Assembly (NCBI GenBank): GCA_965262715.1
Contig: OZ253553.1
Span: forward strand, 1,792,001-1,856,000
From: Bdellovibrionales bacterium
GTDB taxonomy: Bacteria; Bdellovibrionota; Bdellovibrionia; Bdellovibrionales; JAUICD01
DNA: 64,000 nucleotides
Reading direction: 5' to 3'
The first letter of the stretch is position 1. Every line of letters begins with the position of its first letter. The notes beneath the pieces were generated by a model that did no database searches, was not told the origin of the DNA, and was given only the letters and a program-made list of their open reading frames with translations. Both the position numbers and the translations under genes were made by a program. Shown one piece after another: positions 3,932-60,544 of this stretch.

Positions 3932-4199
3932 TAGGAGTGGTCTCAAAAATACTATATCTGCTATTTTATTTGAACTTACCTTAATGTAGTGATTTAGAGT
4001 TATAGCAGGCTTCTTCCATAAGCAAACAGGCAACCCCCGCACCCTGCATTCTTGTTATTTTATAATTTTATTATAGGACAAAGTACTTTTTAAAGGAACT
4101 TTATTTTTTAAGGCGCTGGCCTGAGCTTATTTCAGAAACCTGCTATAACTCTATCTCAACATTACAAAGTGCAAAACTTATTTTTGAGACTGCTTCTAG
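3932..4199 (+). mobile_element. MITE with TAG(G/A)AG(T/C)(G/A)GTCTCAAAAATA ends containing family-A hairpin core (3995-4153)
   Basis: Left taggagtggtctcaaaaata vs reverse complement of right end tagaagcagtctcaaaaata; internal agagttatagcagg...cctgctataactct stem. Confidence 0.7.
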
Positions 4200-4541
4200 T
4201 ACTACATTGGCAAGTTAATTCATTTATATCACAATATAGAGTTATTACACAAAACCTTGCTTTATAATAGCTATGACAGACTTTTGATCTAGCTCAGGCC
4301 AGTGCCTTATGGGATAAAAGTTTTCAAGACATCTTATTCTATAATAAAATCATAAATTTATATAGGTGCAAGGCACGGGGGTTGCCTGCTGCTAGTGAAG
4401 AAGCCTGTCATAGCTATTATATCATTAAATTGAATGGCTTTTGCAACAACAAATTCAAAAAAGTTATAAAAACAACAATTCCACAAATGCGTTTTTTTAT
4501 TAAGATTCATGACACTGGATAACTTGCCAATGTAGTACTAG
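4196..4541 (-). mobile_element. MITE with perfect 22-bp TIR CTAGTACTACATTGGCAAGTTA (IS701-like CTAG ends) containing family-A core (4263-4421)
   Basis: 4196-4217 is the exact reverse complement of 4520-4541; family assignment inferred from CTAG-TAC termini. Confidence 0.7.
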
Positions 4542-4611
4542 TTAAATTTTTTTTCCGGGAAACATATATGGATCTGTCCGATAAGCAAGTAAAAAATACA
4601 CTATTGCAAAC

Positions 4612-5553
4612 TTAAAGACCTAATTTATTTTTTCGTTCATCTAAAAGGTGAATGTATTTTTTCTTAAGTTCCTCTGATAAAAAAGAACTATTTATAAGTT
4701 CTTTCCATTGGCTGACTTGATTTGAAAATTGACTAAGCACCTCATCTATGACCTTAGAGGTTAAATTCAATTTTTCCACACCATAATATGTAGTTAAATC
4801 CTCTTTCGTTAGACCGCGTCTTTTACTATTTAAAGGAAGAGCAATCTCTTCTAAGTTAGAAAGATCAACTATTGTAGAGTTGATTAAGTTATAAACAGGA
4901 CTTAACATCACAACACTATTGATAGTGATAAGAGAAAAGTTTTTTAGATGCATATCTTGATGACCGGTCAGGTAAATAAAAATAGTTCTTTTAAAAAGCT
5001 CTTTCTTTTCAACAGTTGGAAAAGCGCAATATTGCTCAATTGTCTTTGCCACTTTTTCCATAGAAGAATCGTATTTACCTTCTCTCGTCTTTCCTTGCAA
5101 CTGCGCGAAGTTTTCTAAAGGGATTTTGTAAGGATAATCTCCTCTATCAAATCTTCTAATGAAATAAAAAAAATAATCACCTTTGCAATATAAAAGTCCA
5201 TGCTTTGGTGTTTCTATACCAACACGATCAGCTAATTTCATTGTTAAGTCTTCGTTTTCGGGCATCTGTGGCCAGTTAGGGCTCTGTGGTTTAAGTATGT
5301 ATTTCCCACCTGGCATTGTAATTTCAAATTTCTTTTCATCTTTATTAAGATTAATAAGTAATTTAGGATTCTCTCCGGAGATGGATATTCTTGTTTCAGG
5401 TTTTGTAATTTTATCTAGTAATTCATCTTGTGTGTATTCAAACTTTTTTAATGTATCTAATTTTTTATCTAAGTGATGTAATCCTTTTAGGGAATAAGGA
5501 GATGAAGTCTTTTGATGAGAATCTACATTTTCATAAGTGATAGGACATTTCAT
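4612..5553 (-). CDS. HipA/HipT-family kinase domain protein
   Basis: SISGENPK, YILKP, ENEDLTM, RRFDR, DMHLKNFS motifs. Confidence 0.85.
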   Translation of the reverse strand: MKCPITYENVDSHQKTSSPYSLKGLHHLDKKLDTLKKFEYTQDELLDKITKPETRISISGENPKLLINLNKDEKKFEITMPGGKYILKPQSPNWPQMPENEDLTMKLADRVGIETPKHGLLYCKGDYFFYFIRRFDRGDYPYKIPLENFAQLQGKTREGKYDSSMEKVAKTIEQYCAFPTVEKKELFKRTIFIYLTGHQDMHLKNFSLITINSVVMLSPVYNLINSTIVDLSNLEEIALPLNSKRRGLTKEDLTTYYGVEKLNLTSKVIDEVLSQFSNQVSQWKELINSSFLSEELKKKYIHLLDERKNKLGL

Positions 5554-5569
5554 AAATACCTCAATAGGG

Positions 5570-5932
5570 CTAAGCAGCGGATAAGGAAGAAGGTTTTATT
5601 GTCACAGCACCTATGATATCTTCTCCCATAGCTACCAATTGGCCAAGGTAATCTGTTAAACTAAGTTTGTGTTTTTTGAGCAGTATTTCTAATTGTCGTC
5701 CTTCTGGCAAAAGCCCTTCAAAAAAAGGAGGGAAGTTTTTATAAATGTAAGTTTTTCTCAATGTTGGCATAGCTAATGATATTTTTGAACCTTTATAATT
5801 TTGATCATACTTGAATTCATAAAGGCTATCATCTTTTTTTGTTAAGATACCAGCATAGCTTCCTTGAAAATAAACTTCTACAAATGATGGTGGAGTTGTA
5901 TTCTTCATTTTTTTCATTTTTAACTCACTCAT
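5570..5932 (-). CDS. HipA N-terminal domain protein (couple_hipA / HipS-like)
   Basis: AGIL..YEFKYD..ISLAMP..FPPFFEGLLPEG..DIIGAV pattern; directly upstream of the HipA kinase. Confidence 0.85.
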   Translation of the reverse strand: MSELKMKKMKNTTPPSFVEVYFQGSYAGILTKKDDSLYEFKYDQNYKGSKISLAMPTLRKTYIYKNFPPFFEGLLPEGRQLEILLKKHKLSLTDYLGQLVAMGEDIIGAVTIKPSSLSAA

Positions 5933-6316
5933 AAAGCACTAAAAAAAGAAACAAAAGTGTGTAAAAGATAATAAGTTAAGAGGCTTTTATAGCAAAGCCA
6001 TATCATCTACTAGTACTTACTATTTTAATATGAAATGTCTTTTATAACAAGTAGTTTAAAGCAAAAAGATAAATAACAAGTTTCATTGAAAAACTATCGT
6101 TAAATACTGCTTACATAAAAAATTAATATTTTAAATTTTGGAGTAACACAAACTATATACACTCAAATTGATACAATAGCCTTCTATGAAATTAACCAGT
6201 GAACTTATTCATCACTATCACTGGCATATTCTTTATCTGAAAAAAACAGTGCTTTATTTACTAAAAAGCTCCAAAAAAGAAGACCTTGTCTTCTATCATA
6301 CTTAAGGAAACTTACG

Positions 6317-6392
6317 ACCTTGTTGCACAAACATCGATTGTAACTTCTTATATATACTAAGATTTGCAACAGGCTTATTCACTAGCAGCAGA
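6317..6392 (+). repeat. Truncated IS903-type end plus 5' fragment of family-A core
   Basis: gaccttgttgcacaaa resembles the IS5 TIR at 59229; caggcttattcactagcagcag matches the start of the A core. Confidence 0.45.
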
Positions 6393-6500
6393 GTGTCTCT
6401 GTGTCATATATTACTGTGGTTTTATTATCTGAAAGAAGATATCAAAATCTAAAATTCAGGCTAAGTTGAAATAGAAATCACCATGGTTGTCTTTGAAAGA

Positions 6501-9185: not shown

Positions 9186-9198
9186 AAAAACTCCTTTT

Positions 9199-9409
9199 GG
9201 CTTTATTGCATAATTGATTCAACTTAACAATAGCTATGACAGGCTTCTTCACTAGTAGCAGGCAACCCCCGTGCCTTGCATTGCTGTAATTTTAAGATTT
9301 TCTTATAGAATAAAATATTTTTAAAATTATTGTTTCTTAAGGCACTGGCCTGAGCTAGATCAGAAGCCTGTCATAGCTCTTACATTTTAGTGTTTTTTGC
9401 GACAAGACC
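9199..9409 (+). mobile_element. IS903-type MITE containing family-A core (9232-9378), 9-bp TSD
   Basis: Ends ggctttattgca / tgcgacaagacc resemble IS5 TIRs at 59229/60544; flanks actcctttt (9190-9198) and actcctttc (9410-9418). Confidence 0.8.
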
Positions 9410-9463
9410 ACTCCTTTCTGTCTTAAATAGATCAACATCTAGTTATTTGTATTTATCAAGGAT

Positions 9464-9545
9464 TCTGGCAAATGTTTGCTGGCAACTGTTGACGGGAACT
9501 GATTGCCCGACTGCCGGTTTCCCGGATTGCCCGATTCCCGGAAAA
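9464..9545 (+). repeat. GC-rich family-C repeat (8-nt units such as TTGCCCGA/TTCCCGGA, ending CCCGGAAAA)
   Basis: Related copy at 12030-12150 and a short reverse fragment near 4547-4582. Confidence 0.6.
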
Positions 9546-9765
9546 GATAAATTACCTCTTAATTTATATCATATTAAAAAATTCTTCACTTTTTACTTTC
9601 TGTTTTCACCTCTTATTTTAAGAGTGTATCATTTTAAACTATTTATTAGCTCTTATCAAGCAGTATTCTTATCGGTTGACTTAACAGTGAATCTTAGGTT
9701 TTAGGACTCTGTTTTAAATAGGTACAATATTGACTTTTTGCTCTTTTGTAGGCTAAGATTGGAAC

Positions 9766-11277: not shown

Positions 11278-11740
11278 AGTAACTATACAAGAACACTTAA
11301 AAAATCTTGGCGTTGTTATGCAATTACCACAAACCCTCACACAAGACGGGTGTAAAGTTAATTTAGAAGGCTTTAAACACGATCAAAATAGTTTTGTTGT
11401 AGATGTCGATAAAGAAATAGAGAAAAAAAACTCAGAAGTTGAGTGTAAAGGGAAGAGATGTGATTTAGTTTTATGTGCTAATAATAAGGACTGTGTTCTT
11501 ATAGAAGTTAAAAGGGGACAGGCACGGAACAGTGCAAGAGAACAACTTTTAAATACACGTGAATGGTTTAAAAAGCAGAAAAATATTTCTCCTAAAATGA
11601 CATATTACCTTGTACTTATTGCTGAAAGCATAACCCCATATCAACTCAGAAGTAAGAGATTTCAAAAAGCAGGCATTTTACATATAAAACATGGAAAAGA
11701 TATATTTAAGTATTTAAAAGATAGACTAAAAAATAACTAG
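11237..11740 (+). CDS. Small basic protein with PD-(D/E)XK-like nuclease motif, partner of the AAA ATPase
   Basis: KRCDLVL...VLIEVKRG; overlaps the ATPase 3' end. Confidence 0.55.
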   Translation: MMKVIKMNQNHPPKVTIQEHLKNLGVVMQLPQTLTQDGCKVNLEGFKHDQNSFVVDVDKEIEKKNSEVECKGKRCDLVLCANNKDCVLIEVKRGQARNSAREQLLNTREWFKKQKNISPKMTYYLVLIAESITPYQLRSKRFQKAGILHIKHGKDIFKYLKDRLKNN

Positions 11741-11989
11741 AAGTAGTTTGATAAAATAGGTTTTGCAATATAGAGATAGAGTTATGACAGGTTTCTGGAG
11801 TAGGTCTAGGCCAGTGCCTCAAGAGACAAAGTATATATAAGGTACTTGATACTATAACAAAATCTTAAAATAACAGAAATACAAGGCACGGGGGTTGCCT
11901 AAGACCTATGGAAGAAGCCTGTCATAACTCTAGATATTAGGATACTTTCTTTTATCATGACATTGGATAACTTGCTGATGTAGTACTAG
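11738..11989 (-). mobile_element. Chimeric MITE with family-A core (11777-11932)
   Basis: Left end tagaagtagtttga resembles the 3932-4199 shell; right end taacttgctgatgtagtactag resembles the 4196-4541 shell. Confidence 0.65.
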
Positions 11990-12029
11990 AGATAACCTCA
12001 AAGATAAGTTTTGTATTTTAAAACATATC

Positions 12030-12150
12030 TATTTAAAGGGTCTGGCAGTCGGGCAGGCTGGTAAACTGTAACTGGTAAATTAAAGATGCCAGATATTTTG
12101 ATTCCGGATACAGTATGCCAGACTGCCGGATTGCCAGATCCCGGAAAAAA
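12030..12150 (+). repeat. Family-C GC-rich repeat, second copy
   Basis: tctggcagtcgggcag ... tgccagactgccggattgccagatcccggaaaa; similar to 9464-9545. Confidence 0.6.
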
Positions 12151-12243
12151 AGAACATTTAAGTAATTATAAACTTTTATTTTTGAACCCATTTCTTTAAG
12201 ATTTACCTTGCTTAAAATCCATAAATAATTTAGATAGTAATAG

Positions 12244-13764: not shown

Positions 13765-14270
13765 AAGCAGTTTCAAAAATACTAGAAGCCATCTCAAAAA
13801 TAAAGTTTTATATTACCCGTTGAGAAATAAAAGCATTTCCCTTAACATTGCTTAAAAAAATGAGAGATATCTACCCTACTCAAAATAAACAGATTTTTGA
13901 GGCGGTTAGCATCCCCTTGAAGGGGACACATCCCGTAGCGTAAGCCTTCAGGCTAACTGATAAACAACAACAATTTCCCTAACATGGTGTAAGAGAATGA
14001 GGAAACTCTTTCTACTAAAATACATCTTTCTTTCTAGGCGATAACCATTTTCTGATGGAGCCTCAGGGTTATCGCCAGAAAGTGGCCAGGGACTTGCATC
14101 GAGAGGCCAGATGCATTTTAGTGAACAGAGGTTGGTTTATTTTGAGTGAAATAAATTAAACACAAAACATAACATATAACTAAAGATGGCTTCTTACCTG
14201 AGTCTACTCCAGACGCCTGTTATAACTCTATTTCAGTATTGTAAAGTGCAAAGCTTATTTTTGAGACCAC
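13762..14270 (+). mobile_element. Nested repeat complex: GTCTCAAAAATA-type shell containing family-B2 (13836-14151), nested B1 (13974-14125) and 3' half of a family-A core (~14190-14230)
   Basis: tagaagcagtttcaaaaata and tagaagccatctcaaaaata at left, tatttttgagaccac at right; actcaaaataaac pairs with gtttattttgagt around the B1 copy. Confidence 0.65.
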
Positions 14271-14301: not shown

Positions 14302-16014
14302 TTATTCTCTAAAAATAACGAAAATTTGATTTTGCTCTACACGAGCTTTATTTATGTCACTCTCTGAGAGAACATAATCCTGATATCCTTTAGCTTTTAA
14401 GACGATAAATTGACCTTCATGAAATCTTATTTGTTTAGGTGTTCTTTGATAGTCCCATACTCCATCTATAAAAATCTTAGCTCTACTTGGATGGCTAGAA
14501 ATAAAGATGCTCATGTAAGTGGGGGTTGCTTTTTCTGATGTAAGTGTTTTGTCCTTTTCATCTTTCCCATCTATGAGTTTTGTAATTTGTTTTTTTGTGC
14601 TTTGAAATAAAGTGCTTATTTTTTTAGTCAATTTATTTGTATCTTCTGGATATTTTGTCTTGAGATGAAGAGTAAAAATAACACCAATGGAGAACATTAA
14701 AAGCATGCCAAGTTTCATGCAGATAGAGCTAGTTATTTTTTTTGGAGAAAATAGGTTGTTAGGTTTTTTTACATGCTGATATTTTTGAGGACTCTTTTTT
14801 CTTTGTTGTATGAATTTATTAGGTGTTATTGCTTTTACTTGATTAGTTATAGTATGCATAGGAACTTGAGCGACAGCCTTAGATGCTACTTTAGAACTAG
14901 AGAACTTGCCTGATGATAATGACTGTGCTACATTTCCTTCTTGAGTAAGAGTGATTGTTTTTGTTTTTTCATCAAACTCTATACCTTTTTTTTCTAATTT
15001 CTCTAGTGAAGATTTTATAACTTTATTGATATCATCAAACTCTTTCTTATAAAAATTTTGAATCTTGTAACCAAGATGAATAGGATTGAAATTTGGATAT
15101 TTGGCATTGAGAAGACTAGATAACTCTTGATGAAAGTCGTTTGCTGTCATTTTCCTAAGGTTTCTATCGCGAATCAGAGCCCTACTCACAATTTTTTCTA
15201 TATCTGCGAGATATGGGGTTTCAGGACTTATGCTTTTTAATCTAGGAATATGAGCTTCTTTGACTTTTTTTAAAATTTTGGCTTGAGTGTTTGCATAAAA
15301 AAGACGTTGTTTGGAGAGTAGTTCCCAAAGAATAATACCTAAAGAAAAAATATCTGTTTTTTGGTTTATCTCCAACCCATCAGCTTGTTCTGGGCTCATA
15401 TAACTAAACTTGCCTTGAAGTTTCTTAGCTCGCATTTGAGCCATTTGAGTTGGGTCATTACGTTTAGATATACCAAAATCAATGAGCTTTACTTCTCCTT
15501 CGATACTCACCATGGCATTTTGGGGACTGATGTCACCATGTACTAGATAAAGCTTTTCTCCTGTTTTAGGATGAACAAACCTATGCGCATAATCTAAACT
15601 GGCAGCAAGTTCTTTAATGATATAGATTTTTTCTTCAAAAGCAAGATCTGCTTGGGCTGTATAAAGGTCCTTTAAAATCTGTCTAAGGTTTTTTCCTCTA
15701 ATGAACTCTAATTCTAAGACTAATTTTTGTTTTTTTTCTCCTTTTATCATCTCGTCAACGGTATTATAACCAATAACAGATGCGATATTTTTATGTGACA
15801 TATTCATCACTATGTCTGTCTCTTCCTCAAACATCTTGATGAACTCTAAACTTGAGGAAAAAGAGGAGATCATTGTTTTGATAGCCATTAATTTAGAGGC
15901 TTTTGGTTGACCTTTAGTTGTTTTAGGTCTCTTAACGGCTAAATGAACCTCGGCCATGCCTCCTTTACCGAGTTCATGAATTAAAATATATTCTTTACCA
16001 AGCTTTTTTTCCAT
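14302..16014 (-). CDS. Hanks-type Ser/Thr protein kinase with TM helix and C-terminal PEGA-like domain
   Basis: GKGGMAEV, AIK, HGDISPQN, DFG, YMSPEQ, DIFSLG; TM near residue 435-450; SHPSRAKIFIDG. Confidence 0.9.
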   Translation of the reverse strand: MEKKLGKEYILIHELGKGGMAEVHLAVKRPKTTKGQPKASKLMAIKTMISSFSSSLEFIKMFEEETDIVMNMSHKNIASVIGYNTVDEMIKGEKKQKLVLELEFIRGKNLRQILKDLYTAQADLAFEEKIYIIKELAASLDYAHRFVHPKTGEKLYLVHGDISPQNAMVSIEGEVKLIDFGISKRNDPTQMAQMRAKKLQGKFSYMSPEQADGLEINQKTDIFSLGIILWELLSKQRLFYANTQAKILKKVKEAHIPRLKSISPETPYLADIEKIVSRALIRDRNLRKMTANDFHQELSSLLNAKYPNFNPIHLGYKIQNFYKKEFDDINKVIKSSLEKLEKKGIEFDEKTKTITLTQEGNVAQSLSSGKFSSSKVASKAVAQVPMHTITNQVKAITPNKFIQQRKKSPQKYQHVKKPNNLFSPKKITSSICMKLGMLLMFSIGVIFTLHLKTKYPEDTNKLTKKISTLFQSTKKQITKLIDGKDEKDKTLTSEKATPTYMSIFISSHPSRAKIFIDGVWDYQRTPKQIRFHEGQFIVLKAKGYQDYVLSESDINKARVEQNQIFVIFRE

Positions 16015-16168
16015 ATGAAAAACCCATAATTTACCATAATCTATATCGGATTATGGCATTTAGTTCTTAACTTAAGTGGGGTCTAGTTATAGCTTAAAAG
16101 GGCTATTATCATCAAAAAGGTAATGGTTATAAAATGAAACAGTATAGAAGATTTTCGATTTTAGGTAC

Positions 16169-16196
16169 TTGACAGGTGCTTTAGAAATGATATGGT
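16169..16196 (+). promoter_or_regulatory. Sigma70-type promoter for the 5S rRNA gene
   Basis: TTGACA (16169-74), 16-nt spacer, TG-n-TATGGT (16191-96), about 6 nt upstream of the 5S 5' end. Confidence 0.6.
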
Positions 16197-16201
16197 GTAT
16201 T

Positions 16202-16319
16202 TACTGGTTTTTATAGCGGTGGGGGTACACCTGATCCCTTTTCGAACTCAGAAGTTAAGTCCGCCAGCGGCCATGGTACTACAGTGATCTCACTGCGGGA
16301 GAGTAGCACGATGCCAGTA
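16202..16319 (+). rRNA. rrf: 5S ribosomal RNA (stand-alone)
   Basis: Helix I tactggt/gccagta; conserved acacctgatccc..tcgaactcagaagttaag, atggtact, gggagagtag. Confidence 0.93.
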
Positions 16320-17276
16320 TTTTTTCTTTTTATAGTACATATCTTGCAGAAGTAAACCTTTAAGCTGATTAATAGACAACAACAATTTCCCTAACATAAT
16401 GTAAAAAGACGAGGATATCCTTCTAGTAAAAATGCCTCAGGCTTTCTAGGCATTGCCCTATTTGCCAAACGGCGTGAGCCAGTTTGGGGGCAATGCCAGA
16501 AAGTTGCCAGAGGCAAGAGGCATTTTTAGTGAAACAGAGTAGCACGATGCCAGTATTTTTTCTTTTTATAGTACATATCTTGCAGAAGTAAACCTTTAAG
16601 CTGATTAATAGACAACAACAATTTCCCTAACATAATGTAAAAAGACGAGGATATCCTTCTAGTAAAAATGCCTCAGGCTTTCTAGGCATTGCCCTATTTG
16701 CCAAACGGCGTGAGCCAGTTTGGGGGCAATGCCAGAAAGTTGCCAGAGGCAAGAGGCATTTTTAGTGAAACAGAGTAGCACGATGCCAGTATTTTTTCTT
16801 TTTATAGTACATATCTTGCAGAAGTAAACCTTTAAGCTGATTAATAGACAACAACAATTTCCCTAACATAATGTAAAAAGACGAGGATATCCTTCTAGTA
16901 AAAATGCCTCAGGCTTTCTAGGCATTGCCCTATTTGCCAAACGGCGTGAGCCAGTTTGGGGGCAATGCCAGAAAGTTGCCAGAGGCAAGAGGCATTTTTA
17001 GTGAAACAGAGTAGCACGATGCCAGTATTTTTTCTTTTTATAGTACATATCTTGCAGAAGTAAACCTTTAAGCTGATTAATAGACAACAACAATTTCCCT
17101 AACATAATGTAAAAAGACGAGGATATCCTTCTAGTAAAAATGCCTCAGGCTTTCTAGGCATTGCCCTATTTGCCAAACGGCGTGAGCCAGTTTGGGGGCA
17201 ATGCCAGAAAGTTGCCAGAGGCAAGAGGCATTTTTAGTGAAACAGAGTAGCACGATGCCAGTATTTTTCTTTTTAT
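16300..17276 (+). repeat. Tandem array of four identical 236-bp units plus a partial fifth
   Basis: agagtagcacgatgccagt recurs at 16300, 16536, 16772, 17008, 17244; each unit has the 5S 3' end, a T-tract and a family-B1 element. Confidence 0.92.
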
Positions 17277-17298
17277 TAAGATATTCAATAAATATAAT

Positions 17299-17513
17299 GG
17301 CATTGTTGCATATTGGTGATATATAAAGTCTAGAAAATTATGGTAGGCATCTTCACTAGCAGCAGGCAACCCCCGTGCCCTGTATTGCTGTTATTTTGTG
17401 GTTTTATTATGGTATAAAAACTTTATACAAATTTTTATCTCCTGAGGCACTGGCCTGAGCTAGATCAGATGCCTACCATAATTTTCTATACATATTTTTT
17501 ATGCAACAAGTCC
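17299..17513 (+). mobile_element. IS903-type MITE with family-A core (17331-17488)
   Basis: ggcattgttgcata / tatgcaacaagtcc ends; perfect 22-bp stem tagaaaattatggtaggcatct/agatgcctaccataattttcta. Confidence 0.8.
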
Positions 17514-17653
17514 ATAAATAATGGATAATTTTATATAAAAAATATCTGTATTTTTATGCCTATTCTTTGTTGAATATGATAGAAAAATCATATAATCATA
17601 TATTTATAATAAAAATAAGTCAGACACACTAAGTAAAAAATAAAGTTATTATT

Positions 17654-18226
17654 ATGATTAAATCCATTAAATTTCAGAATTTTACATCACTTTATCATGA
17701 AGGTGAGGTCAATTTTGTAGTTGATGATGATGCTCCAGATATAAACGATTTTAAAAAGTGTGGTTCTCACCGGCTCTCAAAAGTATCAGTTATTTTAGGA
17801 GCCAATGGTTCAGGTAAAAGTAATGTGCTTTATGCGATTGCTTTTTTAAGAAGATTTATAGCGCATTCGTTTTCAGAAGCTTCAGAAGGGATAAATATAC
17901 CTCCACATGCAGCGCAAACAGATAAGCCCTCTTATTTCGAAGTGGAATTTTATATTGAAAAGCAGTTATATAAATTTTCTTTAAGACTTAATCAAGAAAG
18001 AGTGCTTTTAGAGACTTTACAATGTCTCAGTCAAGATACAAAGATGTTGTATTCAAGAGAATATGATTCTTCGAAAGGTTCTTATGCATTTGATGGTAAG
18101 AATTTAGAGGTAGAAAGTGATTTTATAAGTAGAGTGCGACCTAATGCTTCTGTTGTATCTACAGGATCACAATATAATTATAATAAATTCATTCAAATTA
18201 AAAGTTATTGGATATGCTTTTATTGA
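17654..18226 (+). pseudogene. 3'-truncated copy of the RloA-like AAA ATPase
   Basis: Close paralog of 19701-20861 up to QIKSYW, then cut at a duplication junction; lacks Walker B. Confidence 0.85.
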
Positions 18227-19211
18227 TATGATCAAATTCTTTCTTATAAAAGTTTTGAATTTTATAGCCAAGATGAATGGGATTAAAACTTGGGTATTTT
18301 GCGTTGAGAAGACTAGATAACTCTTGATGAAAGTCGTTTGCTGTCATTTTCCTAAGGTTTCTATCGCGAATCAGAGCCCTACTCACAATTTTTTCTATAT
18401 CTGCGAGATATGGGGTTTCAGGACTTATGCTTTTTAATCTAGGAATATGAGCTTCTTTGACTTTTTTTAAAATTTTGGCTTGAGTGTTTGCATAAAAAAG
18501 ACGTTGTTTGGAGAGTAGTTCCCAAAGAATAATACCTAAAGAAAAAATATCTGTTTTTTGGTTTATCTCCAACCCATCAGCTTGTTCTGGGCTCATGTAG
18601 CTAAACTTACCTTGAAGCTTCTTAGCTCTCATTTGGGCCATTTGAGCTGGATCATTCCGTTTAGATATACCAAAATCAATGAGCTTTACTTCTCCTTCGA
18701 TACTCACCATGGCATTTTGGGGACTGATGTCACCATGTACTAGATAAAGCTTTTCTCCTGTTTTAGGATGAACAAACCTATGCGCATAATCTAAACTGGC
18801 AGCAAGTTCTTTAATGATATAGATTTTTTCTTCAAAAGCAAGATCTGCTTGGGCTGTATAAAGGTCCTTTAAAATCTGTCTAAGGTTTTTTCCTCTAATG
18901 AACTCTAATTCTAAGACTAATTTTTGTTTTTTTTCTCCTTTTATCATCTCGTCAACGGTATTATGACCAATAACAGATGCGATATTTTTGTGTGACATAT
19001 TCATCACTATATTTGTTTCTTCTTCAAACATTCTAACAAACTCTAGACTTGAAGAAAAAGAAGGAATCATAGTTTTGACAGCTAGTAGCTTAGAGGTTTT
19101 TGGCTGGCCTTTAGCTGCTTTGGGTTTCTTTACAGCCAGATAGACTTCGGCCATTCCTTCTTTACCGAGTTCATGGATTAAAATATATTCTTTACCAAGC
19201 TTTTTTTCCAT
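18198..19211 (-). pseudogene. 3'-truncated copy of the Ser/Thr kinase (kinase domain only)
   Basis: Near-identical to the first ~330 aa of 14302-16014; Gly-loop GKGG changed to GKEG; no TM or C-terminal domain. Confidence 0.8.
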
Positions 19212-19351
19212 ATAAAAAATCCATAGTCTACCATGATTTATATCGGATTATGGCATTTAGTTCTTAACTTAAGTAAGGTCTATTTTGTGTGAGCCAAAGT
19301 AGCACGATGCCAGTGTTTTTTCTTTTTATTAAGATATTCAATAAATATAAT

Positions 19352-19565
19352 GGCATTGTTGCATATTGGTGATATATAAAGTCTAGAAAATTATGGTAGG
19401 CATCTTCACTAGCAGCAGGCAACCCCGTGCCCTGTATTGCTGTTATTTTGTGGTTTTATTATGGTATAAAAACTTTATACAAATTTTTATCTCCTGAGGC
19501 ACTGGCCTGAGCTAGATCAGATGCCTGCCATAATTTTCTATACATATTTTTTATGCAACAAGTCC
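19352..19565 (+). mobile_element. IS903-type MITE with family-A core (duplicate of 17299-17513), preceded by a 5S 3'-end remnant (~19298-19315)
   Basis: Nearly identical to 17299-17513; agtagcacgatgccagt upstream. Confidence 0.8.
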
Positions 19566-19700
19566 ATAAATAATGGATAATTTTATATAAAAAATATCTG
19601 TATTTTTATGCCTATTTTTTGTTGAATATGATAGAAAAATCATATATTTATAAATAACAATGAGCTGAAATGTACCTAAATAAGGATTACAGTTATTATT

Positions 19701-20861
19701 ATGATTAAATCAATTAAATTTCAGAATTTTACATCCTTTTATCATCAAGGTGAGGTCAACTTTGCAGTTAATAATGATGCTCCAAACACGTCTCATTTTA
19801 AGAAATGCGGCACTCATCGACTCTCAAAAGTATCAGCTATTTTAGGAGCCAATGGCTCAGGTAAAACTAATGTTCTTTATGCATTTGCTTTTTTAGGAAA
19901 CTTTATAGCACATTCATTTTCAAAAACTTCGGAAGGAATAAATATGCATCCACATGCAGCGCAGGCAGATAAGCCTTCTTATTTCGAAGTTGAGTTTTAT
20001 ATTAAAAAACAATTGTATAAGTTTTCTTTAAAACTTGATCAAAAAAGAGTTCTTTTAGAGACTTTACAGTGTCTCAGTCAAGATACAAAGATATTGTATT
20101 CAAGAGAATATGATTCTTCGAAAGGTTCTTATGCATTTGATGGTAAGAACCTAAAGGTAGAAAGTGATTTTATAAATAGAGTGCGGCCTAATGCTTCTGT
20201 TGTATCTACAGGATCACAGTTCAATTATGAGGAACTTCATCAAATTAAAAGTTATTGGGATCATATCATTTTTTCACCTTCTTTTAATGTTTTTAAAGCT
20301 TCTAAGTTTTATTTTGAAAATAAAGATTATTTTGATAATGCTAAAGAATATCTTAAAAAATTAGACCTTGGGTTATCAGATATCGATATAAAAAAAACAG
20401 AACAGAAAACATCAAAGGATAAAATAAAAACTGTTTATCTTCCTTATGGTATCCATAAACACAAATCTAAGGAATTTAAAATCCCTTTTATTTTTGAATC
20501 TTTTGGAACACAGAAATTATACACTACGCTTAGAATGATTTTACCTACTTTAGGTACAGGTTCACTTTGTGTTATAGATGAGATAGAATCTTCTCTTCAT
20601 CCAAAGATGTTGCCATTTATTTGTGATTTATTTGTATCGGAGGAGAGTAATCCTAAAGGGGCTCAACTGCTTTGTACAACACATGCGCCTATCTTGGTGA
20701 ATGAATTATCACAATATCAAATATTTTTAACTGAAAAAAATAAAGATTGTGAGAGTGAAATCTATCGATTGGATGATGTTGAAGGTGTAAAATCAGATGA
20801 CAACTTTCTTGGAAAATACTTAGCGGGAGCTTACGGCGGAGTTCCTCAGATTGATGTATAA
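19701..20861 (+). CDS. RloA-like AAA ATPase (AAA_21)
   Basis: GANGSGKT, ESFGTQK, VIDEIESSLHP, TTH, C-terminal YLAGAYGGVP. Confidence 0.85.
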   Translation: MIKSIKFQNFTSFYHQGEVNFAVNNDAPNTSHFKKCGTHRLSKVSAILGANGSGKTNVLYAFAFLGNFIAHSFSKTSEGINMHPHAAQADKPSYFEVEFYIKKQLYKFSLKLDQKRVLLETLQCLSQDTKILYSREYDSSKGSYAFDGKNLKVESDFINRVRPNASVVSTGSQFNYEELHQIKSYWDHIIFSPSFNVFKASKFYFENKDYFDNAKEYLKKLDLGLSDIDIKKTEQKTSKDKIKTVYLPYGIHKHKSKEFKIPFIFESFGTQKLYTTLRMILPTLGTGSLCVIDEIESSLHPKMLPFICDLFVSEESNPKGAQLLCTTHAPILVNELSQYQIFLTEKNKDCESEIYRLDDVEGVKSDDNFLGKYLAGAYGGVPQIDV

Positions 20862-20863
20862 CG

Positions 20864-21373
20864 ATGGTAAAGAAGAGAAAACAAAAACACACTATATTTA
20901 TTTATTGTGAGGGCAAAGATGATCGTTTATTTATTCAACATCTGAAGCGTGCTTTTGCTAGTCTTAAAAAAAGTATTGAATCTAAAAAAGGAGGAGGAGG
21001 TGGACCTTCTTGGATGATTCAAAAGACTACTCGTGAGCCTGGCGAATATGATGAAAAATATATTTTTTTAGACTTAGATCAAGGTAAAGATAAGGAAAAG
21101 CATGAGAGTGATGCTAATAAACAAAATATCACATTGATTTGGTCTACTCCATGTTTAGAAGGATTATTTCTACAGATATTAAATGGTCATCCTCAAATGT
21201 CTGATTCGCAAAAATATAAAAATCACTTTAAGAAGGAATATAATTCAAATAAAAGACAATATGATCCTACAATGTTTGAAAGATTATTCCCTAAGGAAAA
21301 GCTTGTTTCTAAAAAGGCAAAGATTCCAACACTCAATCAATTGATTCAAATAATAAATAGCATAGGAGATTAA
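20864..21373 (+). CDS. RloB-like protein
   Basis: IYCEGKDD, FLDLD, STPCLE motifs; immediately follows the RloA-like ATPase. Confidence 0.75.
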   Translation: MVKKRKQKHTIFIYCEGKDDRLFIQHLKRAFASLKKSIESKKGGGGGPSWMIQKTTREPGEYDEKYIFLDLDQGKDKEKHESDANKQNITLIWSTPCLEGLFLQILNGHPQMSDSQKYKNHFKKEYNSNKRQYDPTMFERLFPKEKLVSKKAKIPTLNQLIQIINSIGD

Positions 21374-47309: not shown

Positions 47310-47404
47310 ATGATATTGCTATAGAGTTTGATCCTAATAGTCCTTTTTAAACACTTAGTCTTAGGAGTGGCTTTGTTGCAGAAGGATTTAGATAATTGTG
47401 TTTA

Positions 47405-47949
47405 ATGTCCCTTTCGGGGATGGTTGAAATCCCTCGCCTTCAGGCGACGCTCAATTTGTGGTATAATACTCAATATGAGACAGTACAGACTTAGTTCACA
47501 TACAAAGAGCGATCTTAAGTTTCATATTGTTTGGATTCCTAAATATCGCAAGAAAGTTTTAGTGGGAGAAGTTGCTACAAGGGCAAGGGACTTATTAAGA
47601 AAGATAGCAATGGAACATGATTTGGTAGTTATTTCAGGTAAGGTAGCTAAAGATCATGTTCATATATTTTTATCCTATCGACCACATCAAAGTATAAGTA
47701 AAATAGTTCAGTGGTTAACAGGTATAAGTTCACGAGTTTTACTTCAGGAATTTCCTTATTTGCGCAAGCAGTTTTGGGGTCGTCATTTTTGGGCTAGAGG
47801 TTATCTTGTAGTAAGTTCTGGTAATATAACAGATGAACTCATCAAGAAGTACGTGGATGAACAAGAGGGTGAACAAATAGCGGATGATAGTCAATTTCCA
47901 ATTGACCCTTCTATTTGAACCCCTCGACTTCAAGTCGAGGGTTGTTCAG
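47405..47949 (+). mobile_element. IS200-type element (tnpA only)
   Basis: Subterminal hairpins tcgccttcaggcga and ccctcgacttcaagtcgaggg flank tnpA; exact ends approximate. Confidence 0.85.
47475..47918 (+). CDS. tnpA: IS200/IS605 Y1 (HUH) transposase
   Basis: HIVWIPKYR, DHVH, FWARGY, YVDEQ. Confidence 0.93.
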   Translation: MRQYRLSSHTKSDLKFHIVWIPKYRKKVLVGEVATRARDLLRKIAMEHDLVVISGKVAKDHVHIFLSYRPHQSISKIVQWLTGISSRVLLQEFPYLRKQFWGRHFWARGYLVVSSGNITDELIKKYVDEQEGEQIADDSQFPIDPSI

Positions 47950-48124
47950 TTTATGTGAGTTGTATATTTCCATTGTTAGATTTATGTTTTTCTAATCAGG
48001 GATTTGTCAAAGTTATAGCCTTTATCATAAGCTTCTATAATCTTACTGCTTTTTTCACGGAGCACATGAGATACTTTAATAGGTATGATATAACCATGTA
48101 TCTTTAATTGGTTTTGCTTTGTAG

Positions 48125-51712: not shown

Positions 51713-51875
51713 ACTGTAACTTACGTACATAAGTTACAGTATTAAGTTCTTAAAATTATTACCGATATAGTTAATGGAAAGGATTTTTCATTGATGGTCA
51801 TTGGTAGGGAAAATGACCAAAAACATCAATGATTTTAAAGGTACACCACTGTAACTTATGTACGTAAGTTACACT
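51713..51875. promoter_or_regulatory. Pair of 28-bp near-palindromic sites (51713-51740, 51848-51875)
   Basis: ACTGTAACTTA-CGTACA-TAAGTTACAGT and ACTGTAACTTA-TGTACG-TAAGTTACACT. Confidence 0.75.
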
Positions 51876-52026
51876 ACTAAGTAGTTGAAATCATTGAAGT
51901 ACTAGACGGTCTAGTCTAGTATTAAGACAACATTTAAGTTCAGAAAATTATAAAAACGTTGAATATTGATAAAGAAACTGTATTCAACCAAAACAATTTC
52001 TTGTATTTTCATTCTAGCAAGAAAAA

Positions 52027-52200
52027 TTTCCTTAACATAGTGTTAAAGAAAGAGGAGTTCCTCTTTAGTAAAATGCATCAAGCTTTCTAGGCAGTAAGCT
52101 ATTTGCCGACGGCCGTAAGAGCTGTCGGGCTTACTGCCAGAAAGTGACCAGAGGTCAGAGGCATTTTAGTGAAACAGAGACCAGTTTATTTTTAGTGAGA
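52027..52200 (+). repeat. Family-B1 element followed by a B2 3' tail
   Basis: ggcagtaagc/gcttactgcc, cGTAAg loop, tgacc-aga-ggtca; preceding ~70 nt also present at ~49635-49705. Confidence 0.8.
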
Positions 52201-52213
52201 CAAAATGTTGATA

Positions 52214-52540
52214 TTAGTGCATCAATCTGCTCTTTTGTTTGTGTTTATCTCTATCATGTTGAAATTTAGCTTTATAAGGATGAGTTTTAGATAAGATCAT
52301 TTCCCACCGGTCATCTTCATTCATTGTAAAATAACCTTCCTCTGGTAACTTTTCATCCTTCATCAATAAAAGTGATTGGTCCAAACTTTTAGGAGCGTTG
52401 TTAAGCTGTAGAGAAGTTAAATTTTGTAAGACTGAATTCTTTTCATTTTGCTTAAATTCTTTAGAAAAATAGGCGCAATCAACACATTGAGCACTTACAA
52501 AAATTGGAATTAGTAAAATATAAGCTACAATATAACCCAT
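52214..52540 (-). CDS. Small secreted hypothetical protein
   Basis: Signal-peptide-like N-terminus, CxxC. Confidence 0.45.
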   Translation of the reverse strand: MGYIVAYILLIPIFVSAQCVDCAYFSKEFKQNEKNSVLQNLTSLQLNNAPKSLDQSLLLMKDEKLPEEGYFTMNEDDRWEMILSKTHPYKAKFQHDRDKHKQKSRLMH

Positions 52541-52728
52541 AACAAAAACCTGATAAACTAAGATTGAACAAGTATTACCATAAAAACATCAAGGGACAAA
52601 AGCGGTAAAGCCTCATTTGTTATTTAAGGGTATAACATAAAGACTTAACCTTTTCAATATAATACATAAATAAAGAAAGTAAAGCAATCTAGTAAATCCA
52701 CTTAGCTCATAGACCATATAGATGGGTA

Positions 52729-56305: not shown

Positions 56306-56541
56306 AGATAATATTGAATAGAATTCTTTTTTATCAAGCTGGTTTCTTTTTGAGAGTTCATCATAAACATCCTCTTTGCCAGATTATTGTTACAACTTTT
56401 GATTGTTAAGTTATAAGCTAATGAGAAATATGGGTAATAATAAAATCTTATAACAGTCATTTAGTTTTTGGATATACTATTGATATAAAGGTGATTTGTG
56501 ATTTTTTAAGAAAATGATCTCTCATTTTTATAAGAGAGGAT

Positions 56542-57606
56542 TTAGCGTGAGCCTTCTAAGCCTTTTTTGATTTGGAGGAATTGGCCTCCAATTAAGAGCA
56601 AGATGAGAAGAATGACAGCAATGATAACTAAATACTTGATGATATCCCCAAAATCCCAACTCAAACCTTCATCTTGGATAGAAGCAAATGCTTTCTTTTC
56701 TACTAAGGGAATAACTTTTTTCCTGAAAGAACTTGTAGCTCCTCGGTCAGTAGTGGAGTCTTTTGTTTGTGATGCTAGGTTGCCTTTTGCTTTTTTTGAA
56801 AGCTGTACTACGCGTGAACCTTGTATATTGCTACTGATATTTCTAGAGGAGTCTCCGGCGGAAGATGATCCACTAGCAAGAGGTGATCCGCTATCATCTT
56901 CTTCTGATTTGCTTAGCAGTATGATTCTACCTTTTCCTCTTGAATTGTTCCTCTGATTGGATAATTGTTGATTGCCAAAGGCCTTACTAGAACCTCCTCC
57001 CGTAGGTATTAGATTTTGTTGGCCTCCTCCACTTCTTATTCCTGAATTTCCTCCAGCTCCTGCGCCGCTTCTACCTTCTGCGAGGCCTTGACCTGAAGAG
57101 GCGTCCGATCCTGGGGGGGGTATATTTGCAGGTGGAGGAACTTTTGGAGGTGGGGGGATATCTGAGAGAGGAGGTATAATTGGATCTGGAGGTAGAACTG
57201 GAGGTGGAGGTATTACTGACCTTGGAGGTGTAACTGCATCTGGTACATCAATATCAGCGGTAAATACAAACGGGGGGGGAGGACATGCTCCTGCAACTCG
57301 AGTTTCAGAGCCTAATTGAGGTAGTTGCCCTTTTCTTAAAAGACATCCTAAATAATCGCGTTCTCCACTTCCGAAAACATCTTCTAAATAATTATAATTT
57401 GCCTCACTAAAAGCCTTCATAAAGGCACCCATCACAGCTAGTATTAAAACTGTTAACAGGATATATTCAACTAAGACTTGTCCATTGGCGTTATTATATT
57501 TCTTAAAAAAACGCCTTAAGACTTTTTTTCCAAAGGTTATTATAGATGGCTTATAAATAATCTTATTTGTTCTCCTAAGTTCATAGTAAAATTTGAACCA
57601 GGTCAA
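56542..57606 (-). CDS. Pro/Gly/Ser-rich membrane protein with Flp/TadE-like prepilin motif (start uncertain)
   Basis: GQVLVEYILL + TM; PPP tract; C-terminal TM helix. Confidence 0.55.
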   Translation of the reverse strand: MTWFKFYYELRRTNKIIYKPSIITFGKKVLRRFFKKYNNANGQVLVEYILLTVLILAVMGAFMKAFSEANYNYLEDVFGSGERDYLGCLLRKGQLPQLGSETRVAGACPPPPFVFTADIDVPDAVTPPRSVIPPPPVLPPDPIIPPLSDIPPPPKVPPPANIPPPGSDASSGQGLAEGRSGAGAGGNSGIRSGGGQQNLIPTGGGSSKAFGNQQLSNQRNNSRGKGRIILLSKSEEDDSGSPLASGSSSAGDSSRNISSNIQGSRVVQLSKKAKGNLASQTKDSTTDRGATSSFRKKVIPLVEKKAFASIQDEGLSWDFGDIIKYLVIIAVILLILLLIGGQFLQIKKGLEGSR

Positions 57607-57829
57607 ATGCTAGAGTTTATAAAGGTTTTAGAAATAGTTTATAGTCTCTTTATCGAAAGAAATGGCTGGTTTCTTGACTCTATCTGTAAAATAGTAATGG
57701 AATGAATGTTTAACAGGAAAAAACTGAATCAATATGATTCAGGTGGTAAACAAAAAAAGAGTGTAGGATATTTAAATCAAACACTCTTTGCTATAAGGTA
57801 ATACGTCTTTTCGTAATGGCTAAAATACT

Positions 57830-58894
57830 TTATAATCCATAATATCTACCTGTACGACCAGAACATCTTAGATCGTCTTCAACCAATTGGCGTCGACGAG
57901 CTTCTGTAGAAATTGGAATACTATGTAAATCTGAGGAGGTAATATTTTCTGCCCTGCGAAGTGTCTGATATACCTCCATCAATGCAGGTAGTTTTTCAAT
58001 TTCAGGTAAGGTGGATAACCATTGATTATATTCTGCTATGACTGTTTGAGTTGCAACTGTATACTTTAACCTCTCAAATGCATAGTATGCTCCTTTAACA
58101 CGAGGATAGTTTTTCCAATCATCGGCCCATTGTTTCCATTCATTTTCATTTTTAAAATTAACAAAGTGATCATCCTCTCTAACAGGAGAGTCTTGACTTG
58201 CCACATACTCATAGTAATTATAACGGGAGCGACACATTCTTTAAAAAATATTATGGTGTCGATTTTGATATGTGAGCCATGGGTTTTTATTTTGTTGATA
58301 AATAAAAGCATAAAGCTCTATTTTGTCATTAGAAAAACCCTCTACTCCCATCATTCTTTTGATCATATCAAGAGGAGTTTCTCCATTTTCATTGGCGGCG
58401 TTAACGGGAGCATATTTATTTATCAAGACATTGATAAAATCTAAATTTGGTCTTTCTAAGTCTCTTCTTATAAGACGATGAAGAAGGTCGGAAGAATCTA
58501 TTTCAATGGCAGATGAACCTTCTATTGCCTCGTGTATGGCAAGATGAAGAGGAGTGTTACCTTCAGCATCGCAAGGTCGACCTAAGACTTCAGCATAAAG
58601 CTGTCTTCTTTGATGGGATCCTGAAATGCTATCCCAGATTCGTGAAAAGAGATTAGAATTATTTATAGCTTCACTCTCAGGAGTGGCCCATACCAAATCA
58701 TCTATAGCAGACTGAATGTCACGATAGTTTAAGTCGTAGAAATTGCTGTCAGGGTGACAGATATCTATTACTTCAAGCAACGTGTTAGTAGTTGTAGTAG
58801 GAGGACGAGCTTGAGCCTCTGCAATGTCAGCCTGAACTGAAGCAGATATTCCAAACAACATGGTTATAATAAAAGAATAAAAATAAGTTTTCAT
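57830..58894 (-). pseudogene. Secreted ankyrin-containing protein split by an in-frame TAA
   Basis: Signal peptide, GNTPLHLA and GETPLD; ORFs 58241-58933 and 57830-58237 share a frame (NIF*RMCR). Confidence 0.6.
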
Positions 58895-59228
58895 AAGCAA
58901 TTTCCTTTTAATCGAAGTAAAGCTAATTGACAAAGATTAAGATTGTTTTAACGCAATTTTTTATCACCACAAATCAATCACATAGGTAATCCCCAATGAC
59001 GTCGTGATAGTTTTCATAAGCTCAATCGGCATTTGTATTTTCTAAGTAGGTTAGAGAAACCAATAAGGTAAATAAAAAAGTTTTTATTATCATAGGCATT
59101 AAGACTCCTTTATTTATTTTAAAAAGATTGATTATTATTTGCAGTTATAGCGAATATAAAACATTTATGACTGTTTTGAAACTAAAATTTGACATTTTGT
59201 AAATTTTACATGCTTTATAAGTCGAAGT

Positions 59229-60544
59229 GGTCTTGTTGCACAAAGATTTAAATAGTTTTTATTTTATTTATTTTTTAAGTAAGATTGTCATTTAATATTT
59301 TTTTATCAAAGAGAAGAAGGCACAATCATCTGATTAAGGATTTTACATTTAATAAACACTTCATTTGCTTGACGATGAAATTCTCTAGAAGATAATTTAT
59401 CACCTAATAAAGTTTTAAATCTATACATAGCTGTTTCTGATATAGACCTCCTGTGATATTTATGCTTTTTTTTCCACTTCTTTCTACCCATCTTCTTGAT
59501 TTCTCTAATATAAGTATCTCTAAGAAGCGGCGATCCTCGACAATTTCCATGCCTCTTAATCACAGCATTCTTTCTAGGTGGAGCAACCAATTTTATACTT
59601 CTATCACTTGTAAACTGATAACAATTCTTACAGTCATAAGCCCCATCAACTGAAACTTGGCCTATCTCATCTTCATATCCTGTCAATAACTCTTCAAAAA
59701 CCTCATTATCCTTTACAGAATTATCACTTAAAACAGATGCCTTAATCTGGGAATTTGACTCATCTACCGCTAAATGTAGCTTCTTCCAGGTCCTTCTCTT
59801 AGAATACCCATGCTGACGGACTTTCCACTCTCCCTCCCCATAAACTTTAAGACCTGTGGAATCAATGACAATATGAGGATTCTTGTGAGAAGATAGCTTT
59901 CTTTCTAGTTTTACTGATAACTTCTGTAATCTTCTGCAAAGAGTTGTATAATTAGGTATTTCTATATCAAGACACATAAGTTCAACTAGGGATTTAGCAA
60001 AACCTTCTGTAGATCGCAATTTTAAACCAAATATGAATCTTAATATATTAAGAGTTTCAATAGCTTTATCAGAGTAAACTTGTTGACCCCCTTGCTTTGA
60101 AGAACATTTTGCATACCAAGATTTGACGATATCTGCTGAAAACCAAAAAGTGATTTGACCTCTATTGACTAGAGACTTATTATAAAGACTCCAGTTTATT
60201 TTTTTATTTTTACCCATCTCTAGCTCCTTCTGATTTAGTGATTGTGAAAGTTGGGGATGGGTAAATTTTATAATCATTAAAAACAAAAAATCAAAGTAAT
60301 AGATATATCAAACTCATAAAAGATCTTATTGCATAAAAATTTAAGAATGAGATTTGTGAAAGACTTCTGAAATAGGACTAGGCTAGCGGCTTAGGGTAAA
60401 TATCTCTTAAACTATTTTATTCTATAATAAAATCTTAAAATAATAGCAATACAAGGCGCGGGGGTTGCCTAGAGCCTATGGAAGATGCCTGACTTAATTC
60501 TCTAATCTTTTATATACTTCCTTAAATCTTTGTGCAACAAAGCC
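59229..60544 (-). mobile_element. IS5-family (IS903 group) element carrying a family-A hairpin core (~60349-60502) in its transposase leader
   Basis: TIR ggtcttgttgcacaaagattta / taaatctttgtgcaacaaagcc; no matching 9-bp TSD. Confidence 0.88.
59306..60217 (-). CDS. IS5-family (IS903 group) transposase
   Basis: NWSLYN..L.NRG, LRSTEGF, PNYTTLCRR, IDSTGLK, GEGEW, WKKLH, DGAYD, YHRRSISET; start after AAGGAG. Confidence 0.93.
   Translation of the reverse strand: MGKNKKINWSLYNKSLVNRGQITFWFSADIVKSWYAKCSSKQGGQQVYSDKAIETLNILRFIFGLKLRSTEGFAKSLVELMCLDIEIPNYTTLCRRLQKLSVKLERKLSSHKNPHIVIDSTGLKVYGEGEWKVRQHGYSKRRTWKKLHLAVDESNSQIKASVLSDNSVKDNEVFEELLTGYEDEIGQVSVDGAYDCKNCYQFTSDRSIKLVAPPRKNAVIKRHGNCRGSPLLRDTYIREIKKMGRKKWKKKHKYHRRSISETAMYRFKTLLGDKLSSREFHRQANEVFIKCKILNQMIVPSSL

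What the first reader, a model, noticed from the sequence alone, without database searches (positions are those of the whole stretch)
3932..60544. Family A: a covarying ~155-nt hairpin in the IS903-like transposase leader and inside three different IS-end shells
Seen: seven full copies (3995-4153, 4263-4421, 9232-9378, 11777-11932, 17331-17488, 19384-19540, ~60349-60502) plus fragments. Outer stem changes compensatorily (agagttatagcagg/cctgctataactct; agctatgacagg/cctgtcatagct; aattatggtaggcatct/agatgcctaccataatt), as does the second stem (ataagc/gcttat, ctagc/gctag, taggtc/gaccta), while the unpaired GGC-AACCCC(C)G bulge is conserved. One copy lies in the 5' leader of the intact IS5 transposase, same strand. 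Others are wrapped by IS903-type TIRs, by TAG..GTCTCAAAAATA ends, by CTAGTACTACA ends, or by a chimera of two. Inference: this is not simple MITE decay; it looks like a structured RNA or ssDNA module under selection that is shared among unrelated transposon ends, possibly a transposon-associated ncRNA or a protein-recognised hairpin with its own mobility.
Basis: partly seen in the sequence, partly recalled or inferred. Interest (0 to 1): 0.82.

Follow-up and report, generated by a model that had tools for sequence, protein, structure and literature searches.

The report
Swappable hairpin core of mini-transposons
A 155-letter DNA hairpin, present about 80 times in this bacterium, rides inside the ends of several unrelated jumping genes and gets flipped and swapped between them, so its matched mutations look more like DNA copying between its two arms than like a new RNA gene.

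Summary
The repeat is real. All seven window copies exist, and the genome holds 82 near-full copies among 117 loci, with strong covariation and no Rfam match. It lies in IS903-type MITEs, in the leader of 13 of 14 long IS903-like elements, in three IS200 derivatives where it replaces tnpA, and in three other end types. The shells are therefore not one decayed end.

The RNA reading is weak. G-T and A-C mismatches are equally common in every helix. The core sits in both orientations within the same flanks and is swapped between shells. The most recently spread IS form, including the window's leader copy, has a broken outer stem yet transposes as a unit. These are signs of template switching and recombination between arms. 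Evidence for selection is modest.

I found it only in this lineage. The scan has already noted the same kind of shared core in swappable shells on other DNA. Likeness to the ERIC core is inconclusive. Verdict: a new variant of structured bacterial MITEs.

The parts
3932..4199 (+). MITE with S2 ends (TA-flanked TIRs at 3932-3951 and 4180-4199) carrying core copy 1
3995..4153 (+). core copy 1
4197..4541 (-). MITE with S3 ends (4197-4218, 4520-4541), with decayed IS903-like TIRs just inside, carrying copy 2
4263..4421 (-). core copy 2
6316..6431 (+). IS903-type left TIR plus 5' half of a core (fragment)
9199..9409 (+). IS903-type MITE carrying copy 3 (9232-9378); 9-bp target duplication 8 of 9 alike at 9190-9198 and 9410-9418
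11737..11989 (-). chimeric shell (S3 end at 11968-11989, decayed S2-type end near 11737) carrying copy 4 (11777-11932)
14196..14270 (+). 3' half of a core plus S2 right end; copies of a second repeat family lie just upstream
17299..17513 (+). IS903-type MITE carrying copy 5 (17331-17488); target duplication 7 of 9 alike
19352..19565 (+). copy 6 (19384-19540) in its shell; segmental duplicate of copy 5
47406..47949 (+). intact IS200 (tnpA 47424-47918); its two ends form the shell of three core copies elsewhere in the genome
47369..48030 (+). core-free IS903-type left-end remnant interrupted by the IS200 (right limit approximate)
59229..60544 (-). complete IS903-like element, 1316 bp, TIRs at 60527-60544 and 59229-59246
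59306..60286 (-). IS5-family DDE transposase ORF (NF033579, 328 bits against a cut-off of 140)
60349..60502 (-). core copy 7 in the transposase leader; chimera with a broken outer stem
60322..60339 (.). decayed inner right TIR between the core and the transposase

Best explanation
It is the shared, rod-shaped core of a modular MITE system confined to one lineage. SHOWN from sequence: (a) most copies lie between IS903-type TIRs, and such units have inserted with 9-bp target duplications; (b) the core has entered the leader of the autonomous IS903-like element and moves with it; (c) it also lies inside IS200 ends and three other end types; (d) it occurs in both orientations within the same flanks, and interiors are exchanged between shells. 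INFERRED: transposases acting in trans on whichever shell is outermost spread it. Template switching and recombination at the 20-bp outer inverted repeat homogenise the arms, flip the interior and swap it between copies, which produces most of the covariation. INFERRED, weakest step (about 40% within this explanation): mild selection at the level of the element keeps the fold, most likely because it folds equally well on either strand. Read-through transcripts crossing it would form a long duplex for RNase III, damping stray transcription into neighbouring genes and into the transposase.
For: 82 near-full copies among 117 loci. 52 of 82 have an IS903-type TIR on at least one side; 8 of the 19 non-leader copies with two good TIRs have target duplications of at least 8 of 9. 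13 of 14 long IS903-like copies carry it, with three junction types in two transposase lineages. 5 of those 13 have perfect 9-bp duplications around the whole element. Related transposases in other genomes of the order have no core beside them (0 of 10 loci). Mismatch states G-T vs A-C per helix: 15/18, 3/4, 2/4, 7/7, 7/9; of 56 rare outer-stem states, 16 are Watson-Crick pairs. Reciprocal flank orders: T5/T7 3 vs 2, T2/T1 6 vs 1, T1/T17 1 vs 1. Well-supported branches of the core tree force at least 2 to 5 label changes for six of the seven shell groups listed and join different shells. Template switching is reported to homogenise arms and invert spacers (PMC8604942, abstract and passages) and to make compensatory changes (PMC8794818, passages). 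RNase III cutting of Correia-containing RNA: PMC10969869, passage.
Against: The spacer inversions in the yeast paper changed only 2-5 bp; here about 115 nt flip, so that mechanism is extrapolated. Template switching should erode asymmetric loops, yet most copies keep them and the length is tight (10th-90th percentile 153-159 nt). Copies are only about 65% alike (median), low for ordinary homologous exchange. No cognate transposase was found for S2 or S3 ends. No RNA evidence bears on the RNase III step. The core tree has few columns and 28 of 57 inner branches are unresolved.
Confidence: 0.55

Rival explanations
1. The core is a protein-recognised ssDNA or cruciform module. Its outer arms act as recombination sites (one element: inversion; two elements: cassette exchange), or it helps any transposase pair its ends. 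It may be a distant member of a cross-phylum core that ERIC also carries.
For: Two positions inside the variable outer stem are almost invariant (58 and 59 of 60). The interior moves between shells at low identity. The core stays paired where inner TIRs have decayed. An orthologous shell-less copy differs at 8 of 156 sites against 87 of 542 four-fold sites (p=3e-4). The ERIC centre scores in the top 0.02-0.12% of E. coli flank positions on a two-arm profile. Watson-Crick-only pairing suits DNA.
Against: The full covariance model hits 0 of 10 ERIC copies. ERIC's right arm scores at most 4.7 bits against 22.7 for true members, and the comparison was chosen after the fact. Against the two adjacent genes the orthologous copy is not significantly conserved (8/156 vs 9/105, p=0.31). 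The six-copy IS form has a broken outer stem, and 3 of those 6 copies have perfect target duplications. No recombinase partner was identified.
Confidence: 0.2
2. Neutral decay: one old IS903-type MITE was nested into other elements and all conservation comes from mutation mechanics and recent bursts.
For: IS903-like TIR relics are seen inside S3 shells and, by eye, inside some S4 and IS200 shells. Uncompensated variants have spread across shells. S2 ends carry other cargoes here and in other genomes.
Against: Conservation is uneven: 0.84-0.88 in inner stems, bulge and tip against 0.72-0.75 in the AT loops. Length and loop geometry are kept. 13 of 14 long IS copies carry it.
Confidence: 0.15
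3. A discrete transposon-associated ncRNA, such as a guide-like or 6S-like RNA or a cis-regulatory leader of the transposase.
For: All 13 leader copies face the transposase. Long covarying rod. The upstream gene is on the same strand for 44 of 68 non-IS copies (p=0.02).
Against: No G-U bias. Both strands fold equally (median z -6.7 vs -6.4 on 30 of 60 copies). No Rfam hit. Absent from relatives' IS903-like leaders. The partner is a DDE transposase, not an RNA-guided type.
Confidence: 0.07
4. An invertible promoter cassette, mobile and inverton-like.
For: 20-bp inverted repeats bound a segment found in both orientations. The tip carries -10-like hexamers on both strands in 44 and 40 of 60 copies.
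Against: No consistent -35 partner: promoter-like sites in 15 and 17 of 60 copies against about 10 in shuffles, at scattered positions. None lies at the tip of the leader copy.
Confidence: 0.03

Closest known systems
Bacterial MITEs with IS-matching TIRs (Nezha, Chunjie, Correia/NEMIS; PMC3184786 and PMC10969869, passages read)
   Same: Non-coding, intergenic, AT-rich, TIRs matching a resident IS, target duplications, stable fold-back, empty and filled sites between sister species.
   Different: One interior is shared by DDE and IS200 shells, is carried by the autonomous element itself, and is flipped and exchanged.
bcr1 of the Bacillus cereus group (PMC3184786, passage)
   Same: About 155 bp, dispersed, lineage-restricted, with compensatory changes reported.
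   Different: bcr1 is cruciform-like with 5-bp direct repeats; this is an unbranched rod inside IS ends. No sequence comparison was made.
ERIC/IRU of enterobacteria (E. coli K-12 copies fetched)
   Same: Rod-shaped palindromic repeat. 12 of 16 letters of the right-arm motif agree, and a C-run faces it on the left arm.
   Different: Not detected by the covariance model. Different ends and a ~60-nt AT-rich tip instead of a short loop.
IS903 subgroup of the IS5 family (subgroup label, 18-bp TIR and 9-bp duplication recalled; NF033579 hit)
   Same: DDE transposase, 18-bp TIRs, 9-bp duplications.
   Different: The left end is lengthened by a TIR-core-decayed-TIR unit that relatives' elements lack.
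Mobile insertion cassettes such as MIC231 (named in PMC6542083, passages; details recalled)
   Same: IS ends carrying exchangeable passenger DNA, moved in trans.
   Different: The cargo is a non-coding hairpin shared across IS families.

Membership tests
MITE mobilised by an IS903-like transposase | TIRs matching a resident IS | tested here: met
   52 of 82 copies with at least one TIR above 15 bits, 28 with both; background 99th percentile 10.2
MITE mobilised by an IS903-like transposase | target duplication of the IS's length | tested here: met
   8 of 19 non-leader two-TIR copies have at least 8 of 9; full IS 5 of 13 perfect
MITE mobilised by an IS903-like transposase | no coding capacity | tested here: met
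   median longest stop-free frame about 30 codons on either strand, 60 copies
MITE mobilised by an IS903-like transposase | mobilisation in trans shown | not testable with these tools
   only indirect: filled site in a sister-species contig, empty in this genome
IS200-derived non-autonomous element | left and right hairpin ends of a resident IS200, tnpA deleted | tested here: met
   3 copies (genome 577234, 1338630, 1956548) carry both ends and the tnpA tail of the window's IS200, compared by eye
ERIC/IRU | detectable homology of the central core | tested here: inconclusive
   covariance model 0 of 10; weak profile score in the top 0.02-0.12% of background, chosen after the fact
ERIC/IRU | ERIC-type terminal repeats | tested here: not met
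   ends differ from the ERIC alignment
REP/REPIN | RAYT transposase in the genome | tested here: not met
   the only PF01797 hit is the IS200 TnpA
REP/REPIN | two short REP palindromes with a tetranucleotide foot at the ends | tested here: not met
   outer ends are variable 20-bp arms without a fixed foot
Known structured RNA (Rfam 15) | score at or above a gathering threshold | tested here: not met
   window: only 5S rRNA; 12 loci: best E 0.42, generic miRNA hairpin
Functional ncRNA in general | strand-specific G-U tolerance | tested here: not met
   G-T and A-C states balanced in all five helices
Functional ncRNA in general | discrete transcript | not testable with these tools
   no RNA run was available to lay

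The most novel reading that the evidence does not exclude
The core is a self-contained, shell-independent cassette. Its outer arms are recombination sites that let it invert and jump between the ends of unrelated DDE and HUH transposons. Its inner bulged helix is read by a host or element protein that boosts the spread of any element carrying it, including autonomous ISs, and it is the local form of a cross-phylum core also found in ERIC.
Probability: 0.2. Interest if true: 0.8.

Novelty: new variant of a known kind. Interest (0 to 1): 0.5.

Why it matters
It is a clear natural case in which textbook covariation can be traced to DNA-level events: flips, arm-to-arm copying and swaps are all visible in one genome. 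That is a caution for RNA discovery by covariation in repeat-rich genomes. It also offers a testable system for why MITE interiors such as ERIC's are conserved. One genome holds autonomous elements with and without the core, an intact IS200 beside its core-carrying derivatives, and an active form with a broken stem. If the core proves to be a protein-read enhancer or recombination cassette, it would be a new layer of parasitism on transposon ends.

Tried and rejected
Rfam, gathering and E-value modes: nothing. Pattern scans of viral, metagenome and genome collections: 0, 0, 2 and 2 loci; the four loci are chance matches by model and BLAST. Plasmid blastn: only short AT-rich pieces. Covariance-model searches: 150 order genomes, one hit genome; 150 phylum genomes, none; only 19 candidates per genome were scored, 150 for the four closest. 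The one hit, G004:C1, is a 12-kb contig in a genome that has a second, 60%-identical recG, so it is most likely misbinned from a sister species. Right-arm motif in 400 phylum genomes: at most 3 per genome outside this one, like the control. Sequencing runs: no RNA holder listed, which says nothing about expression. Laying contigs of four runs could not separate flips at one locus from paralogous copies. Promoter and IHF scans: no consistent promoter; IHF-like sites in 17 of 60 vs 9.3 shuffled on one strand, copies not independent. First automated flank clustering collapsed into one group and was discarded; redone. Cognate transposases for S2 and S3 ends not found. attC, retron, 6S and single-strand-origin readings were considered from memory and dropped by inspection only. 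Literature searches listed no paper describing this family or a core shared across IS families, judged from titles and abstract openings; the library lacks most subscription papers. PMC11602168: outline and abstract only. No supplements were read. R-scape was not available, so covariation is not corrected for relatedness.
Full report
Setting. The window is G000:C1:1792001-1856000 of a 2.94-Mb single-contig genome with 33.6% G+C. Earlier scan notes call the organism an uncultured Bdellovibrionota; I did not test that label. The genome has many multi-copy transposase-like ORFs; IS30, IS1634, IS5 and IS200 were confirmed for window copies.

Observation. All seven copies are present as described. 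Iterated nhmmer finds 117 loci, 82 near full length, 75 distinct, with median pairwise identity 65%. The fold is an unbranched rod: a 20-bp outer stem, a second short stem, a third stem next to a C-rich bulge, a fourth stem, AT-rich loops and a tip. On 60 of the 82 copies, 88.4% of cells pair against 78.3% in shuffles and 30-49% in slid controls; 274 cells change on both sides against 73.5. The 22 left out were duplicates, intron-interrupted, truncated, deleted or chimeric copies, chosen by hand. These controls do not correct for relatedness. There is no Rfam match.

Shells. (S1) IS903-type TIRs flank 52 of 82 copies on at least one side; 8 of 19 non-leader two-TIR copies keep a 9-bp duplication at 8 of 9 or better. 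(Leader) 13 of 14 long IS903-like copies carry TIR, core and a decayed inner TIR before the transposase, with three junction types across transposases about 99% and 74% alike; one copy has a core-free leader. Five of the 13 have perfect 9-bp duplications around the whole element. Ten loci with related transposases from other genomes of the order have no core, so the core was added in this lineage. (IS200) The window's intact IS200 (NF033573; the only Y1 transposase) supplies both ends of three copies in which the core replaces tnpA. (S4) These ends resemble the end of a broken IS5-family remnant at genome 1131038-1131554. (S2, S3) 117 and 18 end hits, only 18 and 8 of them within 150 nt of a core. 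S2 ends wrap unrelated interiors here and in at least two other genomes of the order, with near-identical ends in two more. The shells are therefore independent ends, and many copies are left-right chimeras.

Source of the covariation. A functional RNA should tolerate G-U on its own strand (established knowledge; two-step route described in PMC8794818). Here G-T and A-C states are balanced in every helix, and 16 of 56 rare outer-stem states are Watson-Crick pairs. Both strands fold equally well. Flank types occur in both orders around the core: T5/T7 3 vs 2, T2/T1 6 vs 1, T1/T17 1 vs 1; T11 and T19 occur on both sides, and by eye the largest group does too. In L049, and by eye in L035 and L037, the first internal loop has become a continuous stem; in L023 the stem runs 27 pairs. 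Arm homogenisation with spacer inversion is the reported signature of template switching (PMC8604942), though for far shorter spacers. The outer half of the outer stem tracks the shell, while the interior does not: the core tree needs 28 label changes where 8 would be the minimum, and starred branches join IS200 with shell-less or S1 copies, S4 with S1, and S2 with S1 (few columns, many unresolved forks). The leader copy in the window belongs to a six-copy form with only 9 of 15 outer pairs, and three of those six have perfect target duplications, so an intact outer stem is not needed for this IS to move.

Selection. For: uneven conservation, tight length, presence in 13 of 14 long IS copies, and one orthologous shell-less copy at 5.1% divergence against 16.1% at four-fold sites (p=3e-4). 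Against: that copy is not significantly below the two adjacent genes (p=0.31), the bulge motif is exact in only 25 of 60, and uncompensated variants have spread. I judge selection likely but mild. Strand-neutral Watson-Crick pairing also fits selection on ssDNA or on transcripts from either side, so the symmetry excludes a one-strand RNA, not selection as such.

Range. Found in this genome and on one contig of G004 that is syntenic at 82-92% and comes from a bin with a second recG, hence probably a misbinned sister species. Two other samples with relatives show contigs on the core positions. Not found in the congeneric G001, in the other order genomes or in 150 phylum genomes searched, with the caveat that few candidates per genome were scored, nor in pattern scans of the large collections.

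Relation to ERIC and to other scan notes. The scan already holds several notes, from other genomes, on shared cores in swappable shells, some tied to ERIC and one describing a GGCC stem beside a five-base bulge. These are unchecked leads. My test against ten E. coli ERIC copies was inconclusive: no covariance-model hit, a weak profile likeness chosen after the fact, and no enrichment of the shared motif in 400 phylum genomes.

Verdict. A real, apparently undescribed (searches), lineage-restricted MITE core that works like the interior of structured bacterial MITEs and is a member of that class in its IS903-type and IS200-type shells. It differs in being shared across DDE and HUH shells, captured by the autonomous IS, and demonstrably flipped and swapped. 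Most likely (0.55) it hitch-hikes, with DNA-level arm copying making the covariation and mild selection keeping the fold; a protein-read cassette is the main open alternative (0.2). Interest 0.5.

Noticed in passing
G000:C1 near 1930254/1928382, 2115226, 1881183, 1433977 and 1775302: A group II intron with a 465-aa RT-like ORF, or its remnants, sits at the same position in the core's 5' arm at four loci, and once in an S2 end. The core appears to serve as its homing site.
   Followed up: partly
window 59229-60544 and G000:C1 1602963: These two oppositely oriented IS903-like copies have reciprocally swapped target duplications, implying an inversion of about 250 kb between them.
   Followed up: partly
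window 47369-48030: The IS200 has inserted into a core-free IS903-type left-end remnant, which preserves the probable ancestral leader.
   Followed up: partly
window 16203-17310: A 5S rRNA gene is followed by 236-bp tandem repeats that each include the 3' end of the 5S gene and a copy of the second (three-way-junction) repeat family.
   Followed up: no
window 12040-12150, 9480-9560; many S2 shells: A third GC-rich hairpin cargo, and a fourth short palindromic element elsewhere in the genome, also occupy or adjoin S2 shells.
   Followed up: no
L011, L025, L030, L047: Four copies carry the same ~14-nt extra mini-hairpin at one position of the right arm, across different shells.
   Followed up: no
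window 15022-21373: A ~2-3-kb duplication yields two kinase-like genes and two AAA-ATPase genes; the intact ATPase is followed by a RloB-like gene.
   Followed up: no
window 4612-5932: Split HipA-like pair (HipA_C and Couple_hipA) beside the two nested MITEs.
   Followed up: no
G004:C1 and G004:C11: G004:C1 looks misbinned from a close relative of this genome (second recG); C11 also carries this lineage's S2 ends and repeats.
   Followed up: partly
G186:C53, G186:C28, G110:C17, G130:C1, G158:C18: S2-type or near-identical ends wrap different structured interiors of 68-172 bp overall in other genomes of the order.
   Followed up: partly
G000:C1 401195 family: About ten dispersed copies of a ~100-aa ORF that looks like a four-helix-bundle protein (label recalled, not scanned).
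   Followed up: no
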